Positions 3,476 to 17,515 of a stretch of DNA of 20,000 bases are shown one piece after another (position 1 is the first letter of the stretch; every line of letters begins with the position of its first letter). The position numbers and the translations under genes are program-made. The DNA is taken from IMG/VR virus record IMGVR_UViG_3300032294_001063; one strand, written 5' to 3'. The stretch comes from an uncultured virus (IMG/VR IMGVR_UViG_3300032294_001063). Taxonomy: Duplodnaviria; Heunggongvirae; Uroviricota; Caudoviricetes. Below the pieces are notes generated by a model. That model was not told where the DNA came from. It saw only the letters and a program-made list of their open reading frames with translations, and did not search any database.

Positions 3476-4259
3476 TTAGTGCTTCCTCCTGTGTGTATGT
3501 TTTTTCATTTGCTAATACTACACTATGGGTCTGACATTCTGCCATTTCTACTTCATTCTGCCAAGAGCCCTGCCCACATTCGGAGCAGAATTCACCGCAG
3601 TCATTTTCGCAGTAATCCAATGTATCAAAAGATTGACAAGCATAGCAACGATTCTCATATTCTAGAATAGTTTTAACATCACCACGGACAATCTCTAGTT
3701 CTCCGCCCCAACCTGTTTCTTCCTCATACTCTAATGTAAGAAGAGAGTTCGGAACAAGATTACTTAATTTAGTTAAGATAGTTACAGCAGGTGACCAAGC
3801 AGTTTCATATTTATAGACAAGCCAGTTGTCATCACCTTCTGATTTATATTCAAGTAATTCTGTATTTGAATACTCTTCGTCATCACGAACGGCTACATCC
3901 CACTTAGTTCCCCAGTTGGAGTTATTCCACGAATACCAATCTTTTTGAGTTTTAGCAAACTCAACAGACTTCTTAAACCAATTAGGGTCATTGGTGTCAA
4001 TACCACCACGAGAAGGTTGGCAAGCATATTCCTCATCAGTAATTCCGTCATCCTTATATGAGTGGATATTGTGGAAAGCAAAGACAGGATTATTATATTC
4101 AACCTGCTTAATTTTGGTGGGGAAACCCATAGAAGAGATATCACCCATACCATAGTTCTCCATTGCTAATGTGAATGGACGATTTAGTCTTTCTTTGATA
4201 GAATCAATTTCCTCTTTAGGTCCTTGAATAGTTAACGTGTTATAACACCAATTTGGCAT
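3468..4259 (-). CDS. YubB/Api92 (DUF1281)-like ferredoxin-fold protein with Cys-rich C-terminus
   Basis: MPNWCYN start, WYSWN..NWGTKWD and YETAWSP motifs characteristic of this family. Confidence 0.75.
   Translation of the reverse strand: MPNWCYNTLTIQGPKEEIDSIKERLNRPFTLAMENYGMGDISSMGFPTKIKQVEYNNPVFAFHNIHSYKDDGITDEEYACQPSRGGIDTNDPNWFKKSVEFAKTQKDWYSWNNSNWGTKWDVAVRDDEEYSNTELLEYKSEGDDNWLVYKYETAWSPAVTILTKLSNLVPNSLLTLEYEEETGWGGELEIVRGDVKTILEYENRCYACQSFDTLDYCENDCGEFCSECGQGSWQNEVEMAECQTHSVVLANEKTYTQEEALNG
3515..3536 (-). promoter_or_regulatory. PafBC/RecA-NDp-type promoter (within CDS)
   Basis: TGTCAG-ACCCATAGTG-TAGTAT. Confidence 0.65.
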
Positions 4260-4284
4260 TTTATTTCCTTTCGCTAATAACCCA

Positions 4285-4306
4285 ATTATATATTAGACCA
4301 CTGACA
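4285..4306 (-). promoter_or_regulatory. PafBC/RecA-NDp-type promoter
   Basis: TGTCAG-TGGTCTAATA-TATAAT. Confidence 0.8.
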
Positions 4307-4437
4307 TTTGTCTATGCAATATGGGTGTGTTTTACACCACATCCGATCAAAGCTGATCTCAATATGTGAAATTTCCAGGAATTAATATTGACATCCGTAA
4401 ATAGCATATGATACCCTCAGGTCTTTTGGGGGCCAAA

Positions 4438-4588
4438 CAAAAAATCCCTCAGCTAAGCTGAAGGATCTTAAGATAAGTAAGGCTGCTAGCAGAACGAAAG
4501 GAATTTAGTATACGCTGCTTTATTTAACGACTTGGGGGAACCCCTGGTAGCCGCACCATACTTCAATGAAAAGGCCCGCTAGGACCTA
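4438..4588 (-). ncRNA. candidate small RNA with anti-RBS sequence UUCCUUUCGUU
   Basis: Extended -10 TGATATAAT at 4594-4602, no ORF, 5' hairpin, intrinsic terminator 4439-4466. Confidence 0.5.
4439..4466 (-). terminator. intrinsic terminator
   Basis: ATCCTTCAGC-TTA-GCTGAGGGAT followed by a T run. Confidence 0.75.
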
Positions 4589-4614
4589 TTCATATTATAT
4601 CATATCTTAGTTAA

Positions 4615-5019
4615 CTAAACTGAGAGAGTAACGTCAGCATACTTCTCAACAAAGTTACTTAGGTCCATAGTAAAGAGCGCTTCATTGCTCATCCCATTAA
4701 CCTTGTTATCTAAGTCATTACGTGGAGCCTCTTCGTGAAGACTAAACGTTTGCTGTTGGAAATCGACAATAGCAATCTTGTGCTCATTATCGCCAATCTC
4801 ATTTACGTGCAGGCCCCATCCAGTTTCTGAATTCCATTCATCTGCTACCATTTGACTGATTGTAATACGTGTAGCATATGATGGGTCATTCCACCTAGGA
4901 CGTGCTTTAAACACTGCCTCTGCTAATCGAGCAAGCATTTGGTGGCCCGCCCAGTGCCCGTATAGTACAATTGTATTTCCATTCGGCTGTACGAATCCGA
5001 AGTTTGCTCTGTCTCCCAT
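4615..5019 (-). CDS. hypothetical phage protein (MGDR...LYGHW)
   Basis: 134 aa ORF with AAAAGGCGGA RBS. Confidence 0.8.
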   Translation of the reverse strand: MGDRANFGFVQPNGNTIVLYGHWAGHQMLARLAEAVFKARPRWNDPSYATRITISQMVADEWNSETGWGLHVNEIGDNEHKIAIVDFQQQTFSLHEEAPRNDLDNKVNGMSNEALFTMDLSNFVEKYADVTLSV

Positions 5020-5589: not shown

Positions 5590-6242
5590 TATGCTTCCCT
5601 CACATAACAGATTTCAGTATCGACAATCTCAATGTTGCCACTCTGTGAATCAACAAAAAGATTATCTGTGATTTCTGTTTCGAAGTCATAGTCTTCAAGT
5701 ATGTTCAGGTCAATTGTTCCACTAACCTCGATGGTTGCGGTGAATTCAATTGTTCTAGTTAATTCAATGTTAAGCGCTTCAGCAATTGCACGAAGAGTAT
5801 CTTGGTCATCTGAATCAGCATATGCTTCAGTGATAATATCTTTAACTGTATTAATGTTGGATTCAAATACCCCAACACGCTTTTGTGCTTGACGTCCATT
5901 GTGTAGGTCCCACTCAATGCTGGCAACCTTATCAGTTGCATATTCTGCATCTGAATAACCACGGATTACTTTGTATGTAACCAATAGGTTAGAGTTATAT
6001 GTATCAGGAACTACAGATGTTGTTGTTTCTGTTGTCATTTTATTTCCTTTCGTTTCTGTTATAGGTGTATCTGTATACGGTATTGTAGCATCTTCCACTG
6101 ACAATAATGTGCAATTGGAGTTACATCGGCATGTGAGGTCCATCACACCCGCTGGCCATCCATATCCATCTTTAATTGTATATTCAATTAATGCGTCACA
6201 GTCTCCTGTGCACACCCAGGTATACTTTTGATATTTGGTCAT
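5589..6242 (-). CDS. hypothetical protein with Cys-rich N-terminal extension; internal start at 6038
   Basis: Leaderless ATG 6242 is 6 nt after TATAAT; second in-frame ATG 6038 has an AACGAAAGGAA RBS and its own promoter. Confidence 0.7.
   Translation of the reverse strand: MTKYQKYTWVCTGDCDALIEYTIKDGYGWPAGVMDLTCRCNSNCTLLSVEDATIPYTDTPITETKGNKMTTETTTSVVPDTYNSNLLVTYKVIRGYSDAEYATDKVASIEWDLHNGRQAQKRVGVFESNINTVKDIITEAYADSDDQDTLRAIAEALNIELTRTIEFTATIEVSGTIDLNILEDYDFETEITDNLFVDSQSGNIEIVDTEICYVREA
6082..6103 (-). promoter_or_regulatory. PafBC/RecA-NDp-type promoter (internal)
   Basis: TGTCAG-TGGAAGATGC-TACAAT. Confidence 0.7.
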
Positions 6243-6270: not shown

Positions 6271-6367
6271 TATACAAGCTTTTCAGGGTGTTTTTTATGT
6301 GATCCGTAACACAGAAATTTCGCCTTCAAGGTTGCGGGCATCTCACATATTGATATTAAATTCTTAG

Positions 6368-6441
6368 CGATCCATAACGGACTTGAACCGTCGACCTCTA
6401 CCGTGACAGGGTAGCGCTCTAACCAACTGAGCTAATGGACC
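6368..6441 (-). tRNA. tRNA-Asp(GTC)
   Basis: Cloverleaf GGTCCAT/ATGGATC, anticodon arm CTACC-CTGTCAC-GGTAG, T-loop TTCAAGT; no encoded CCA. Confidence 0.95.
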
Positions 6442-7520: not shown

Positions 7521-7542
7521 ATTATAACAGGTGGCACTGACA
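7521..7542 (-). promoter_or_regulatory. PafBC/RecA-NDp-type promoter
   Basis: TGTCAG-TGCCACCTGT-TATAAT. Confidence 0.8.
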
Positions 7543-8016: not shown

Positions 8017-8199
8017 TTATGCGCCGATTTTTACCATAGCCCAACGCATACCCTTTTCAGTATTCAATCCTAGTTTAGTTAGATTAGGACGAATAGAAAC
8101 GATTTCTGCGATTGTTCCTGTAATACCCGACTTGCCTGTGGTAAATACATCTCCCTTGCGGTAGAAGCGACCCTTAGCAGTATCTAGTATTGGTGCCAT
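8017..8199 (-). CDS. small beta-rich protein, paralog of 8749-8904
   Basis: TT.KSGITG...RW motif; AACGAAAGGAA RBS. Confidence 0.75.
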   Translation of the reverse strand: MAPILDTAKGRFYRKGDVFTTGKSGITGTIAEIVSIRPNLTKLGLNTEKGMRWAMVKIGA

Positions 8200-8263
8200 T
8201 TGTTTTTCCTTTCGTTAGTAGGTGGGTGAGCAGTTTATAGACTTGCTCAGGTCATTAGATTAT

Positions 8264-8680
8264 TTAGAGATACTTAGCAATTTGCTTCATTGTAGAAGCA
8301 TTTACTGTTTCCTCATCTGTCATCTTTAGAATTGTAAGGGCATTTGTGATGTCCTCTTTCATCTCACGATAAGTGTGCTGATGGATAATCTCAAAATCCT
8401 TTTCAGGCTCTTTAGGAAAATCAGTTTCTTTCGTGATGATGTCAAAATCAACATTGAGAGTGTTGTTCCATTGACGATAGTTTGTGCGAAGGTTCTCAGC
8501 CTTTGCGAAGTTTGCGATAGCCCACTTGCCAATTTCCTTCTGCCACTTTTCACGGGCTTTCTGAAACTTTGCTTCGTTTGCTTCTTGTGAGGCATAGTCT
8601 TTTTCTAGTGTTGCTAGACGATTTTCTAGTGCCTTGATTACCTTTGGTGTTGCCACCTTTACTGTGATTGCTCTTGACAT
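8264..8680 (-). CDS. hypothetical protein
   Basis: 138 aa ORF, AACGAAAGGG RBS. Confidence 0.8.
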   Translation of the reverse strand: MSRAITVKVATPKVIKALENRLATLEKDYASQEANEAKFQKAREKWQKEIGKWAIANFAKAENLRTNYRQWNNTLNVDFDIITKETDFPKEPEKDFEIIHQHTYREMKEDITNALTILKMTDEETVNASTMKQIAKYL

Positions 8681-8710
8681 TATTTCCCTTTCGTTCGGTT
8701 GTTTGGTTGT

Positions 8711-8732
8711 ATTATAGCAGGGGGGTCTGACA
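8711..8732 (-). promoter_or_regulatory. PafBC/RecA-NDp-type promoter
   Basis: TGTCAG-ACCCCCCTGC-TATAAT. Confidence 0.75.
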
Positions 8733-8748: not shown

Positions 8749-8904
8749 CTACTTAGCAGATACGCTTGTCCAGCGTTCTTGTCCCTCTACATCTAGTAGC
8801 ACACGATTTACACCGCTTGGGTGATTGTCAATAGCCTTGACAATTCCTGTGATACCGCTTGTAGTTGTTGTGTAGGTCTGCCCTACTTCTAGCATTGTTG
8901 CCAT
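8749..8904 (-). CDS. small beta-rich protein (51 aa, MATMLEVGQTY)
   Basis: Translated manually; AACGAAAGGAA RBS; similar to 8017-8199. Confidence 0.75.
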   Translation of the reverse strand: MATMLEVGQTYTTTTSGITGIVKAIDNHPSGVNRVLLDVEGQERWTSVSAK

Positions 8905-8930
8905 TTTTGTTTCCTTTCGTTTAGGGGTTT

Positions 8931-10768: not shown

Positions 10769-10790
10769 ATTATAGCAGACTAGACTGACA
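10769..10790 (-). promoter_or_regulatory. PafBC/RecA-NDp-type promoter
   Basis: TGTCAG-TCTAGTCTGC-TATAAT. Confidence 0.75.
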
Positions 10791-11380: not shown

Positions 11381-11515
11381 TTAGATATTCCAATCTTCTA
11401 AGGCGCACTCACACGCTTCTACATCATAATTATTTTCATCTCCCCAAAATAGGAAGCCAGCACCACCACACTCATCACAAGCAACGGCAATTATTTCTTT
11501 TACATCTTTTACCAT
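11381..11515 (-). CDS. small Zn-finger-like protein (CDECGG...CEC)
   Basis: ATG 11515 with AACGAAAGGAA RBS. Confidence 0.7.
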   Translation of the reverse strand: MVKDVKEIIAVACDECGGAGFLFWGDENNYDVEACECALEDWNI

Positions 11516-11543
11516 TTTAGTTTTCCTTTCGTTTGTTATCGGT

Positions 11544-14363: not shown

Positions 14364-14392
14364 TTGACTAGAATTAATATATTTTGTATAAT
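14364..14392 (+). promoter_or_regulatory. sigmaA-type promoter, leaderless HNH gene
   Basis: TTGACT-N17-TATAAT, ATG 6 nt downstream. Confidence 0.65.
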
Positions 14393-14398
14393 CTCAAT

Positions 14399-14821
14399 AT
14401 GGAAGAAATATGGAAAACTATACCTAAGCTCGTAATAAGGGGCGGAAGAGAATTTACTCCAGATAGATACGAAGTATCTAACCTTGGAAGAATTCGTACA
14501 AAGAAACAAAGATACGGACAACCTAGAAAGGATCTAGGAAATAAAAGAGCGGAACTAGCAGAGTATCGTTATTTGACAGGAAGACCTGATCAAGTAGGGT
14601 ATATGCAAGTAGATTTATTTGATGCTAATTCTGTAAGATCTAAATATCGTATTCATACTATCGTTATGCAGACATTTATTGGTTTGCCAGAAGCTGGACA
14701 GGTTATCTGCCACTACGATGATATTAAAACAAATAATCATTTATCTAATTTAAGATACGATACCATGAAATCTAACGGTCAAGATAGAATAAGGAATAAA
14801 AAACTTTCTTTGATCTCTTGA
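14399..14821 (+). CDS. NUMOD4/HNH homing endonuclease
   Basis: EIWK...YEVSNLGRIR (NUMOD4); H.IVM.TF...CHYDDIKTNNHLSNL (HNH). Confidence 0.85.
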   Translation: MEEIWKTIPKLVIRGGREFTPDRYEVSNLGRIRTKKQRYGQPRKDLGNKRAELAEYRYLTGRPDQVGYMQVDLFDANSVRSKYRIHTIVMQTFIGLPEAGQVICHYDDIKTNNHLSNLRYDTMKSNGQDRIRNKKLSLIS

Positions 14822-17279: not shown

Positions 17280-17352
17280 TGGACCATAGCTCAGTTGGCA
17301 GAGCGTAGAGCTGTTAACTCTAATGTCCCAGGTTCGAGCCCTGGTGGTCCAG
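17280..17352 (+). tRNA. tRNA-Asn(GTT)
   Basis: Cloverleaf TGGACCA/TGGTCCA, anticodon loop CTGTTAA. Confidence 0.95.
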
Positions 17353-17356
17353 CTTA

Positions 17357-17430
17357 GCACCAGTAGCCAAGTTGGTTAAGGCCCCGAACTCATAATTCGG
17401 CTATCGTAGGTTCAAGTCCTGCCTGGTGTA
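17357..17430 (+). tRNA. tRNA-Met/Ile2(CAT), non-initiator
   Basis: Cloverleaf GCACCAG/CTGGTGT, loop CTCATAA; lacks initiator GGG/CCC anticodon stem. Confidence 0.9.
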
Positions 17431-17434
17431 CTAA

Positions 17435-17507
17435 CCCTTCGTAGCTCAGAGGATAGAGCGAGGCTCTTCTAAGGCCTGCGTCACACGTTCGAATCGTGTC
17501 GAGGGGG
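17435..17507 (+). tRNA. tRNA-Arg(TCT)
   Basis: Cloverleaf CCCTTCG/CGAGGGG, loop CTTCTAA. Confidence 0.93.
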
Positions 17508-17515
17508 CAATAAAG

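What the first reader, a model, noticed from the sequence alone, without database searches (positions are those of the whole stretch)
4438..4602. Candidate sRNA carrying the exact antisense of the shared early-gene RBS
Seen: an ORF-free ~150-nt minus-strand unit between an extended -10 (TGATATAAT, lacking the TGTCAG element) and an intrinsic terminator. It contains UUCCUUUCGUU (+ 4493-4503), enclosed by an AGCAG/CUGCU stem. This is the 11/11 complement of the leader AACGAAAGGAA at 6044, 8206, 8911 and 11523, and a near match to leaders at ~1156, 2748, 4266, 7497, 8687, 9494, 10747, 12014 and 13690. It is the only copy I saw in the opposite orientation, and no start codon follows it on the + strand. 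Inference: a trans-acting RNA that shuts off translation of the early regulon, and possibly host GAAAGG mRNAs, while leaving leaderless genes unaffected.
Basis: partly seen in the sequence, partly recalled or inferred. Interest (0 to 1): 0.85.

Follow-up and report, generated by a model that had tools for sequence, protein, structure and literature searches.

The report
Phage small RNA mirroring early-gene leaders
An uncultured lake phage, probably of actinobacteria, carries a conserved, folded small-RNA gene whose exposed loop is the mirror image of the short tag in front of about a dozen of its own early genes, so it probably turns their translation down as a group, although no experiment has tested this.

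Summary
On the minus strand, 4602-4436 is a self-contained gene with an extended -10, a 5' hairpin, a three-way-junction core and an intrinsic terminator. Its unpaired P3 loop carries UUCCUUUCGUU, the complement of the AACGAAAGGAA leader.

The RNA matches no Rfam family. A covariance model finds it in the window and in 137 of 144 related IMG/VR loci, and once in each of three complete 104-116 kb genomes.

CUUUCGUU is kept in 57 of 60 non-redundant members. In complete genomes the leader tag is confined to a 10-12 kb early block on one strand, and the RNA is the only reverse copy inside that block. Loop extensions and leader flanks change together across clades, but this count is not corrected for phylogeny.

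Best reading (about 0.5): a trans-acting antisense brake on the early regulon. The junction is more conserved than pairing alone requires, and three members have other loops, so a protein-bound scaffold role remains open. No transcript data were obtainable.

This scan has already reported this RNA family on sibling genomes (e1-6025591, e1-5997635, e1-5954746). A parallel anti-SAS hairpin exists in Cluster K mycobacteriophages.

The parts
4594..4602 (-). Extended -10 promoter TGATATAAT of the RNA gene. It overlaps the 3' flank of the upstream 134-aa gene (stop codon at 4615-4617), and GTTAAC stands where early promoters carry TGTCAG.
   Evidence: TGnTATAAT is conserved at this place in the relatives aligned.
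4572..4587 (-). 5' hairpin AGGUCCUAGCGGGCCU starting at the inferred transcription start. It may cap the 5' end of the RNA, or terminate the upstream gene, or both.
   Evidence: A hairpin of at least 5 bp and at most -4 kcal/mol is predicted here in 36 of 44 relatives, with different stem sequences. The transcription start is inferred, not measured.
4472..4565 (-). Conserved three-way-junction core (covariance-model match). P1 is 4563-4555 with 4483-4475. P2 is 4554-4549 with 4532-4527, plus a distal GGG/CCC. The junction UUAAAUAA is at 4526-4519. P3 is 4518-4513 with 4491-4485, with A4487 bulged.
   Evidence: CM R1 scores 97.7 bits, E 6e-24.
4493..4503 (-). Anti-leader segment UUCCUUUCGUU in the 21-nt P3 loop (4512-4492). 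The family-wide invariant part is CUUUCGUU (4500-4493).
4436..4469 (-). Intrinsic terminator: a 13-bp stem followed by a U run.
   Evidence: A hairpin of at most -8 kcal/mol followed by at least 5 U in 9 nt is present in 40 of 44 relatives.
4265..4275 (-). Leader AGCGAAAGGAA of the adjacent 263-aa gene (ATG at 4259), a candidate target giving 11 contiguous pairs including one G-U.
6044..6054 (-). Exact leader AACGAAAGGAA, 8 nt upstream of an ATG that opens 149 codons.
8206..8216 (-). Exact leader AACGAAAGGAA upstream of the 60-aa ORF 8017-8199.
8911..8921 (-). Exact leader AACGAAAGGAA upstream of the 51-aa ORF 8749-8904.
11523..11533 (-). Exact leader AACGAAAGGAA upstream of a 44-aa ORF (ATG at 11515).
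8685..8695 (-). Leader AACGAAAGGGA upstream of the 138-aa ORF 8264-8680, giving 12 contiguous pairs with the loop.

Best explanation
The unit at 4602-4436 (minus strand) is a gene for a roughly 150-nt non-coding RNA of a family not in Rfam. The family is carried once per genome by a large group of uncultured 104-116 kb lake phages, whose proteins most resemble those of actinophages. The RNA folds into a 5' hairpin, a three-way junction (P1, P2, P3) and a terminator. The P3 loop presents CUUUCGUU, extended to UUCCUUUCGUU in this phage, as single strand. I infer that this loop pairs with the AACGAAAGG tag. The tag sits in the roughly 20-nt 5' UTRs of about a dozen early transcription units, where it overlaps the Shine-Dalgarno sequence, so pairing would block 30S binding and turn the whole early block down together. 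The RNA has a plain extended -10 promoter rather than the TGTCAG-type promoter of its targets, so its level is set independently of theirs. Shown: the gene boundaries by sequence, the conservation, the structure by covariation, the complementarity and its conservation, the restriction of the tag to one block, and the co-variation of loop and leader flanks. Inferred: transcription, pairing in vivo, repression rather than activation, and timing.
For: Boundaries: extended -10, terminator (40 of 44 relatives) and 5' hairpin (36 of 44).
Family: CM R1 hits 96 of 100 sources and 42 of 45 sources. It hits once in each of 3 complete genomes.
Structure: 89.1% of cells are paired against 78.2% in shuffles, and the covariation score is 0.306 against 0.113, with 0 of 500 shuffles reaching either value; slid controls give 0.036-0.082. 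On 60 sequences the figures are 88.3% against 72.0% and 0.395 against 0.131.
Loop: CUUUCGUU is present in 57 of 60 members. Its mean unpaired probability is 0.67 against 0.42 for the whole RNA, and it exceeds 0.5 in 51 of 55.
Regulon: in three complete genomes AACGAAAG occurs 7, 12 and 12 times on the gene strand, nearly all within one 10-12 kb block. The RNA is the only opposite-strand copy inside that block. In the window, 13 of 15 CGAAAG copies lie 7-11 nt before a start codon.
Co-variation: genomes whose RNA has UUCC or UCCC before CUUUCGUU have CGAAAGGAA in 50 of 101 distinct leaders, against 6 of 67 in genomes whose RNA extends on the other side (Fisher 1.6e-8). C-AACGAAAG shows the reverse trend, 21 of 101 against 26 of 67 (p 0.014).
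In L087 and L107, which lost the P3 motif, CCUUUC appears instead in the P2 loop.
Against: No transcript evidence could be obtained. The junction strands, three P1 pairs and three P2 pairs are invariant or nearly so. A junction C..G / U..A pair of positions co-varies perfectly (36, 23 and 1 A..A of 60). This is more constraint than a simple antisense RNA needs. Three of 60 members keep the core but have other P3 loops. One of them, L075, is still a stand-alone gene with its own promoter and terminator, and L087 and L107 still have AACGAAAG leaders. Complementarity is short, 8-12 bp. The co-variation count is not corrected for shared ancestry or orthologous leaders. In the helix-length matrix one of four RNA types (V3) pairs no better with its own leaders, 10.82 against 10.99. 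The whole-RNA folding z-score is only -1.73. The RNA gene lies inside the block it would repress, so the timing logic is unproven.
Confidence: 0.5

Rival explanations
1. The family's primary function lies in the conserved three-way junction, which binds a phage or host protein. The P3 loop is then an exchangeable module, either a guide that brings the complex to leader-tagged mRNAs or something unrelated to them.
For: The junction and helix-proximal pairs are invariant. C..G / U..A co-variation within the junction is perfect in 59 of 60, with one A..A exception. Members with the same core but other loops are L075, L095/L097 and L087/L107. The RNA keeps strict synteny with a highly conserved 134-aa protein of unknown function.
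Against: No partner has been identified. 57 of 60 members keep CUUUCGUU unpaired. Loop and leader co-variation points to RNA-RNA pairing as at least part of the function.
Confidence: 0.25
2. It is a cis-acting element of the downstream 263-aa gene. On this reading it is an attenuator or leader whose anti-SD segment sequesters that gene's ribosome-binding site in read-through transcripts.
For: It lies immediately upstream of the 263-aa gene in most loci. That gene's leader gives 11 contiguous pairs with the loop. In L095/L097 the RNA core has no terminator and runs straight into an 82-aa ORF.
Against: A terminator follows the core in 40 of 44 relatives. The downstream gene has its own conserved TGTCAG-type promoter between the two. 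The RNA occurs at other positions as a stand-alone gene, as in L075, and about 2.1-2.4 kb downstream of the 263-aa gene's start in L076, L117, L137 and L141. The tag it complements is on about a dozen genes, not one.
Confidence: 0.07
3. The loop mimics the 3' tail of 16S rRNA. On this reading it acts on Shine-Dalgarno sequences in general, host mRNAs included, or on a factor that recognises that tail.
For: UCCUUUC equals the end of the 16S anti-SD region of most bacteria (recalled, not tested here). The CCUUUC in the P2 loop of L087/L107 lacks the CGUU part in one of the two.
Against: 24 of the 57 motif-bearing RNAs have A or U in place of the UCC. The invariant part is CUUUCGUU, and its GUU has no counterpart in the 16S tail as I recall it. 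The complementary AAC-G prefix is phage-specific and confined to one gene block.
Confidence: 0.06
4. It is not an RNA at all, but a DNA-level element such as a protein-binding site in an intergenic region dense with such sites.
For: The flanking DNA holds several conserved boxes: a GCCC..GGG inverted repeat, TTTACG, and a GGTGTG/CACACC palindrome.
Against: Compensatory changes keep pairing in three helices. The element is strand-specific and is framed by a promoter and a terminator whose stems vary in sequence but not in pairing.
Confidence: 0.03

Closest known systems
c4 antisense RNA of phages P1 and P7 (Rfam C4 family)
   Same: Both are small structured phage RNAs whose complementary sequences sit in loops and pair with the target mRNA around the ribosome-binding site to block translation (review PMC12197685, passages seen).
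   Different: c4 controls one operon (ant) for immunity, whereas this RNA would address a tag shared by about a dozen separately promoted early units. No sequence or structure match was found: the C4 model gave no hit even at E up to 10. RNase P processing of c4 is recalled and was not testable here.
T4 RegA translational repressor and RegB endoribonuclease
   Same: Both are phage-encoded post-transcriptional shut-off systems for many early mRNAs acting at their translation initiation regions. RegA competes with the ribosome on about 30 mRNAs, and RegB cuts GGAG Shine-Dalgarno sequences of early transcripts (PMC3014915, passages seen).
   Different: RegA and RegB are proteins. Here the recognising agent would be an RNA, and the recognised tag includes a phage-specific prefix (AAC-G) next to the SD.
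Start-Associated Sequences (SAS) of Cluster K mycobacteriophages
   Same: SAS is a conserved tag (GGGATAGGAGCCC) 3-9 bp upstream of the start codons of 13-19 non-structural genes. It is in one orientation and extends beyond the SD, its role is still called unknown, and each genome has a single copy in the opposite orientation (PMC3203893; PMC11373665). I found that this reverse copy lies in an ORF-free gap and in the apical loop of a strong hairpin on the gene-sense strand.
   Different: The motif and the RNA differ, with no homology. In Adephagia late transcription is reported to start in that gap, so the anti-SAS hairpin would be part of a long late-transcript leader rather than a terminated small RNA. 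In 2 of the 5 further Cluster K genomes scanned the loop is only a degenerate complement.
C-rich-loop sRNAs that target Shine-Dalgarno sequences (actinobacterial 6C/B11 RNA, RsaE/RoxS of Firmicutes); recalled, not tested beyond Rfam
   Same: These also present pyrimidine-rich apical loops to purine-rich ribosome-binding sites, and they work in Gram-positive hosts, where Hfq is either absent (actinobacteria) or not known to be needed for such sRNAs.
   Different: They are cellular RNAs with a different fold. No Rfam family matched. Here the seed is defined by a phage-specific leader, not by GGG-type SDs.

Membership tests
Rfam C4 antisense RNA (P1/P7 c4, P4 CI) | Match to the family covariance model | tested here: not met
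   cmscan of all 4227 Rfam 15 families found no C4 hit, either at gathering score over the window or at E up to 10 over 4250-4700.
Rfam C4 antisense RNA (P1/P7 c4, P4 CI) | Loop sequences complementary to the target mRNA at or near its RBS | tested here: met
   The loop UUCCUUUCGUU is complementary to the leaders. It is predicted unpaired, with a mean probability of 0.66 in the window RNA.
Rfam C4 antisense RNA (P1/P7 c4, P4 CI) | Maturation from a longer transcript by RNase P (recalled) | not testable with these tools
   No RNA data were available. The unit has its own promoter and terminator instead.
Any described RNA family (Rfam 15) | Score at or above a family's gathering threshold | tested here: not met
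   Only three tRNA matches were found in the window. The best sub-threshold hit in the region is NsiR1 at 18.8 bits against a threshold of 39, and it is carried by the terminator.
Independent trans-acting sRNA gene | Own promoter and own intrinsic terminator, with no conserved ORF | tested here: met
   TGnTATAAT is conserved. A terminator is present in 40 of 44 relatives. No ORF of 30 aa or more is present, and the short AUG-started frames in the window are not kept in relatives.
Independent trans-acting sRNA gene | A discrete transcript is made | not testable with these tools
Independent trans-acting sRNA gene | Seed conserved, and targets co-vary with it | tested here: met
   CUUUCGUU is present in 57 of 60 members. 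Loop-extension type correlates with leader flanks, 50 of 101 against 6 of 67, but this is not phylogeny-corrected.
Riboswitch or cis-regulatory 5' leader | Lies in the 5' UTR of the regulated gene, with no promoter in between | tested here: not met
   The downstream gene keeps its own TGTCAG...TATAAT promoter between the terminator and its start. One divergent lineage, L095/L097, does look like a leader.
Cluster K SAS system | The 13-bp motif GGGATAGGAGCCC upstream of starts | tested here: not met
   The window's tag is AACGAAAGG(AA). The two share a design, not a sequence.

The most novel reading that the evidence does not exclude
Actinophages have evolved, more than once, an RNA counterpart of T4 RegA/RegB. 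This is a single RNA, made from a different promoter class than the early genes, that displays the mirror image of a private start-site tag and so silences the whole tagged gene set. In the lake phages the tag-reading loop is mounted on an invariant three-way-junction scaffold that binds a protein, so the RNA acts as a programmable guide whose loop can be exchanged, as in the members with other loops. The same logic would explain the unexplained SAS tags of Cluster K mycobacteriophages, through the anti-SAS hairpin in the late-transcript leader.
Probability: 0.15. Interest if true: 0.9.

Novelty: new variant of a known kind. Interest (0 to 1): 0.72.

Why it matters
If the reading is right, a widespread group of abundant lake phages shuts off a whole class of its own early genes with one small RNA that reads a private tag next to the ribosome-binding site. 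Known phages do this job with proteins (T4 RegA and RegB). Known phage antisense RNAs such as c4 do it for a single operon only.

The finding also supplies a new, well-supported structured RNA family with three covarying helices and hundreds of natural variants. Its over-conserved junction invites a search for a protein partner.

It offers a concrete, bench-testable hypothesis for the start-associated sequences of Cluster K mycobacteriophages. The role of these sequences has been called unknown since 2011. These phages grow on a laboratory strain, and RNA-seq data for them already exist.

Tried and rejected
1. Known family. Rfam at gathering score over the window and at E up to 10 over 4250-4700 gave only weak matches (NsiR1, PyrR, GcvB) carried by the terminator or by composition.

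2. Cultured relatives. blastn of 4200-4900 and tblastn of the 263-aa protein against 50,697 phage records found nothing. CM R1 found nothing in Streptomyces phages Riptide and Mandalore.

3. Whole genome and expression. Expression therefore stays untested.

5. An alternative 8-bp helix UAAGUAAA/UUUACUUA, predicted as the MFE in many members, was rejected. The 23 sequences with A at the G position keep the partner C (an A-C mismatch), and no double-sided change occurs.

6. An alternative helix GCGGCUA/UAGCAGC that would compete with P2 was rejected by inspection of the alignment, not by a pair count. The P2 co-variation (G-C to C-G, A-U and U-A) is with AGUCGC, not with that strand.

7. RNAduplex of the whole RNA against the TIRs was uninformative. 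All 63 TIRs and the shuffled RNAs passed any threshold. It was replaced by contiguous-helix counts.

8. A similarity of AAGUCGU to the 16S 1492 region was dismissed as expected by chance (my estimate, not a tool result).

9. The upstream 134-aa protein gave a confident model (pLDDT 87.9), but no informative fold match. Foldseek on the PDB gave a best E of 0.19, and VIA-align wide gave a best Z of 3.6. Pfam found nothing, and the PHROG match is of unknown function. This says nothing for or against RNA binding.

10. Pfam DNA_pol_A and Terminase_6N searches of complete genome G001 found nothing. Phage typing therefore rests on two window proteins.

11. Literature. Ten searches found no description of this RNA or of an anti-leader RNA for a phage early regulon. 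In the 10,006-candidate viral structured-RNA screen (PMC10690425), four short strings from this RNA gave 0 hits in the 6 supplementary files searched, but 3 files could not be searched. The RNA may therefore be among its unnamed candidates.

Full report
**Observation**

Genes in this window run on the minus strand. The + strand carries AACGAAAGGAA at 4493-4503, so a minus-strand transcript reads UUCCUUUCGUU.

With up to one mismatch the 11-mer occurs 9 times. Eight copies are on the gene strand and this one is reversed. Chance gives a mean of 0.52, and none of 200 shuffles reached 9.

Using the core CGAAAG, 13 of the 15 gene-strand copies lie 7-11 nt upstream of an ATG that opens 44-334 codons. 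Nine of those 13 have TGTCAG within the 40 nt upstream, and a TATAAT-type -10 box follows it in most of them. Their 5' UTRs are therefore only about 20 nt long, which I infer from promoter positions.

The reversed copy sits in a stretch with no ORF of 30 aa or more. The stretch is bounded by TGATATAAT at 4594-4602, with no TGTCAG before it, and by a 13-bp terminator hairpin with a U run at 4469-4441.

**What it is**

No Rfam family matches the region, and no cultured phage has similar DNA.

The flanking 134-aa and 263-aa proteins have many relatives in IMG/VR: 64 loci for the first, and 80 kept of 229 for the second. blastn with the intergenic unit found it in 75 loci, giving 45 distinct sequences at 97% down to 68% identity.

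I built a covariance model from 43 core sequences (A2, R1).
- It then found the element in 96 of 100 sources, including the window.
- It found it in 42 of 45 further loci.
- It found it exactly once in each of three complete genomes of 104, 110 and 116 kb with terminal repeats.
- It did not find it in Streptomyces phages Riptide and Mandalore.

**Phage and host**

The window's DUF932 and GP88 proteins find their best matches in actinophages: 52.8% to 131-kb Streptomyces phages, and 56.6% to Mandalore and to Mycobacterium phages. G+C is 33-41%. I therefore infer a low-GC freshwater actinobacterial host. This has not been shown.

**Structure**

The RNA has four parts.
- A 5' hairpin starts at the inferred +1. 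It is predicted in 36 of 44 relatives, with varying stem sequence.
- A three-way junction forms the core.
- A terminator closes the unit (40 of 44). Of the four misses, two are an artefact of my truncated extraction, one (L101) has no hairpin, and one (L097) runs into an ORF.
- On the MAFFT alignment A2 the three helices are 89.1% paired against 78.2% in column shuffles. The covariation score is 0.306 against 0.113, and 0 of 500 shuffles reached either value. Partners slid by 1-3 columns score 0.036-0.082.

On 60 non-redundant sequences aligned to the model (A3), the figures are 88.3% against 72.0% and 0.395 against 0.131. An alignment fitted to the model leans towards the model's structure.

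The P2 base helix is the clearest case. GCGGCU/AGUCGC is replaced by GCCGCU/AGUGGC, GCCCCU/AGGGGU, GCAUCU/AGAUGC and others, and it is 99.4-99.6% paired.

The register GCAGNN/NNCU(A)GC with a bulged A is 85% paired, with 4 of 6 pairs changing on both sides.

**Conservation beyond the helices**

- The junction strands are nearly invariant.
- Two junction positions four bases apart co-vary perfectly: C..G in 36 sequences, U..A in 23, and A..A once.
- An alternative helix, UAAGUAAA/UUUACUUA, is not supported (see Tried and rejected).

**The loop**

CUUUCGUU is present in 57 of 60 non-redundant members. It is predicted single-stranded, with a mean unpaired probability of 0.67 against 0.42 for the whole core, and it exceeds 0.5 in 51 of 55.

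- In 33 members it is preceded by UUCC or UCCC, as in this window.
- In 24 it is preceded by A or U and followed by GG, and it sits at the tip of a longer hairpin with a UUCGUU apex.

Three members keep the core but not the motif.
- L075 has P3 GCGC-UUAG-GCGC and is still a stand-alone gene with its own promoter and terminator.
- L095/L097 has no terminator and runs into an 82-aa ORF. Its locus has no CGAAAGG leader at all.
- L087/L107 have CCUUUC in the P2 loop instead and still have AACGAAAG leaders.

**The targets**

In the three complete genomes, AACGAAAG occurs 7, 12 and 12 times on the gene strand. Nearly all copies lie within one 10-12 kb block. Inside that block the only opposite-strand copy is the RNA gene (the RNA positions are).

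The tag is therefore not the phage's general ribosome-binding site. It marks one set of small, separately promoted, presumably early genes. In the window, 8 translation-initiation regions can form 10-12 contiguous pairs with RNA positions 85-96.

**Co-variation between RNA and targets**

I grouped genomes by loop type and de-duplicated the leaders.
- CGAAAGGAA, which pairs with the UUCC extension, is found in 50 of 101 leaders where the RNA has that extension, against 6 of 67 where it does not (Fisher 1.6e-8).
- C-AACGAAAG, which pairs with the G after CUUUCGUU, is found in 21 of 101 against 26 of 67 (p 0.014).

In the helix-length matrix, three of four RNA types pair slightly better with leaders of their own type, and one (V3) does not. 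These counts are not corrected for shared ancestry, so I treat them as suggestive.

**Mechanism**

The best-supported reading is a trans-acting antisense RNA. Its loop pairs with the AAC-GAAAGG tag, covers most of the short 5' UTR including the Shine-Dalgarno sequence, and lowers translation of the tagged block together.

The RNA's promoter is a plain extended -10. Its targets use TGTCAG-N8-TATAAT promoters. Earlier notes of this scan read those promoters as PafBC/RecA-NDp-like. I could confirm only that such a motif exists by name (PMC6789036); its sequence I know from recall. The RNA and its targets would thus be under different transcriptional control.

Two facts keep the confidence near one half.
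- No transcript or repression data exist.
- The junction is conserved far beyond what pairing needs, and the core survives with other loops.

A protein-bound scaffold or guide role is therefore the main rival. The cis-attenuator, 16S-mimic and DNA-element readings are weaker, for the reasons listed under Rival explanations.

**Comparison with what is known**

By mechanism the closest RNA is c4 of P1/P7, which has loops complementary to the ant mRNA around its RBS (PMC12197685, passages). This RNA is not a member of that family.

By role the closest systems are T4 RegA, which competes with ribosomes on about 30 mRNAs, and T4 RegB, which cuts GGAG Shine-Dalgarno sequences of early mRNAs (PMC3014915, passages). 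Both are proteins.

By design the closest parallel is the SAS tag of Cluster K mycobacteriophages. This lead came from earlier notes of this scan. Pope et al. describe a 13-bp tag 3-7 bp before the start codons of non-structural genes, in one orientation, with a single reversed copy per genome, and they leave open whether an RNA or a protein reads it (PMC3203893, passages). Its role was still called unknown in 2024 (PMC11373665). A 2025 survey of 188 genomes does not contain the words antisense or sRNA (PMC12699233, term counts and passages).

**The Cluster K check**

I looked at the reversed copy in these phages.
- In Anaya there are 16 forward copies and 1 reversed copy. The reversed copy lies in the 385-bp ORF-free gap between gp96 and gp97.
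- The gap is conserved in 182 Cluster K records.
- An invariant TAGACT lies about 95 nt upstream of the reversed copy.
- In Anaya, Adephagia, Biglebops and Krueger the anti-SAS decamer forms the 10-11-nt apical loop of a hairpin of -23 to -33 kcal/mol, with z-scores of -2.0 to -3.5.
- Adephagia and Biglebops each have one exact reversed core in that gap. Krueger has a variant. Shandong1 and Ekdilam have only degenerate complements.

The same design therefore recurs in cultured phages: one reversed copy of the start tag, on the sense strand, in a loop, under another promoter class.

**Novelty**

I found no description of this RNA family or of a regulon-wide anti-leader RNA in a lytic phage. This rests on ten literature searches and on Rfam.

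It may be among the 10,006 unnamed candidates of PMC10690425. I could search that paper's supplements only in part: 0 hits in 6 files, with 3 files not searched.

Within this scan the family has been reported before on sibling genomes (e1-6025591, e1-5997635 and e1-5954746), with the same reading and the same caveat about members with other loops. My analysis agrees with those notes. It adds the corrected P3 register, the junction co-variation, the loop-type against leader-flank association, and the Cluster K anti-SAS hairpin.

Noticed in passing
L147 39683-40067 (Mycobacterium phage Anaya, record 59682-60066); also L148, L151, L152: The single reverse-oriented SAS of Cluster K mycobacteriophages lies in a conserved ORF-free gap. 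On the gene-sense strand it forms the apical loop of a strong hairpin, about 95 nt downstream of an invariant TAGACT. Adephagia late transcription is reported to start in this gap. This gives a possible anti-SAS RNA and a testable answer to what SAS tags are for.
   Followed up: partly
window, minus strand, e.g. 4285-4314, 1171-1192, 2767-2788, 7521-7542, 8711-8732, 10769-10790: Early promoters share TGTCAG(TG)-N7/8-(TGn)TATAAT. All 21 TGTCAG copies are on the gene strand (chance 8.6). Earlier notes of this scan read these as PafBC/RecA-NDp-type promoters. The RNA's own promoter lacks the element.
   Followed up: partly
window 4396-4436 (minus strand) and relatives (alignment A5): Directly after the RNA terminator lies a conserved block: GCCC(G/C)CA-N-TGAGGGTA-(T/A/G)CATAT-N-TTTACG-N-GTCAA. 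It reads as an inverted repeat plus a promoter-like pair of hexamers (TTGGCC-17-TATCAT). Looser copies are at 449-469 and 506-526. It matches the repeated TTTACG/three-box element described in earlier notes.
   Followed up: partly
window 4323-4341 (minus strand: GGTGTAAAACACACC) and relatives: A palindrome GGTGTG-N3-CACACC (GGTGTGAATCACACC in several relatives) lies upstream of the 263-aa gene's promoter.
   Followed up: no
window 4615-5019 (minus strand): The 134-aa protein always encoded just upstream of the RNA is highly conserved, with invariant YGHWAG, YATRI and DNEH. It gives a confident model (pLDDT 87.9) but no informative match in Pfam, PHROGs or solved structures.
   Followed up: partly
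L097 4832-4919 and L095 4832-4919: A divergent copy of the RNA core has no terminator and runs straight into an 82-aa ORF, in a lineage whose leaders lack CGAAAGG. It looks like a 5' leader rather than a separate gene.
   Followed up: partly
relatives, leader of the 263-aa gene (A5 columns about 170-200): In many relatives this leader reads AUAUC-AACGAAAG-GAUAU, so the tag would sit in the loop of a 5-bp hairpin. This would allow a loop-loop (kissing) first contact with the RNA. The window's own leaders show no such stem.
   Followed up: no
window 6367-6441 (minus strand), 17280-17508 (plus strand): There are four tRNA genes: Asp, and a tandem Asn-Met-Arg. An HNH/NUMOD4 endonuclease ORF is at 14384-14821 on the opposite strand, where G+C drops to 33%.
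   Followed up: no
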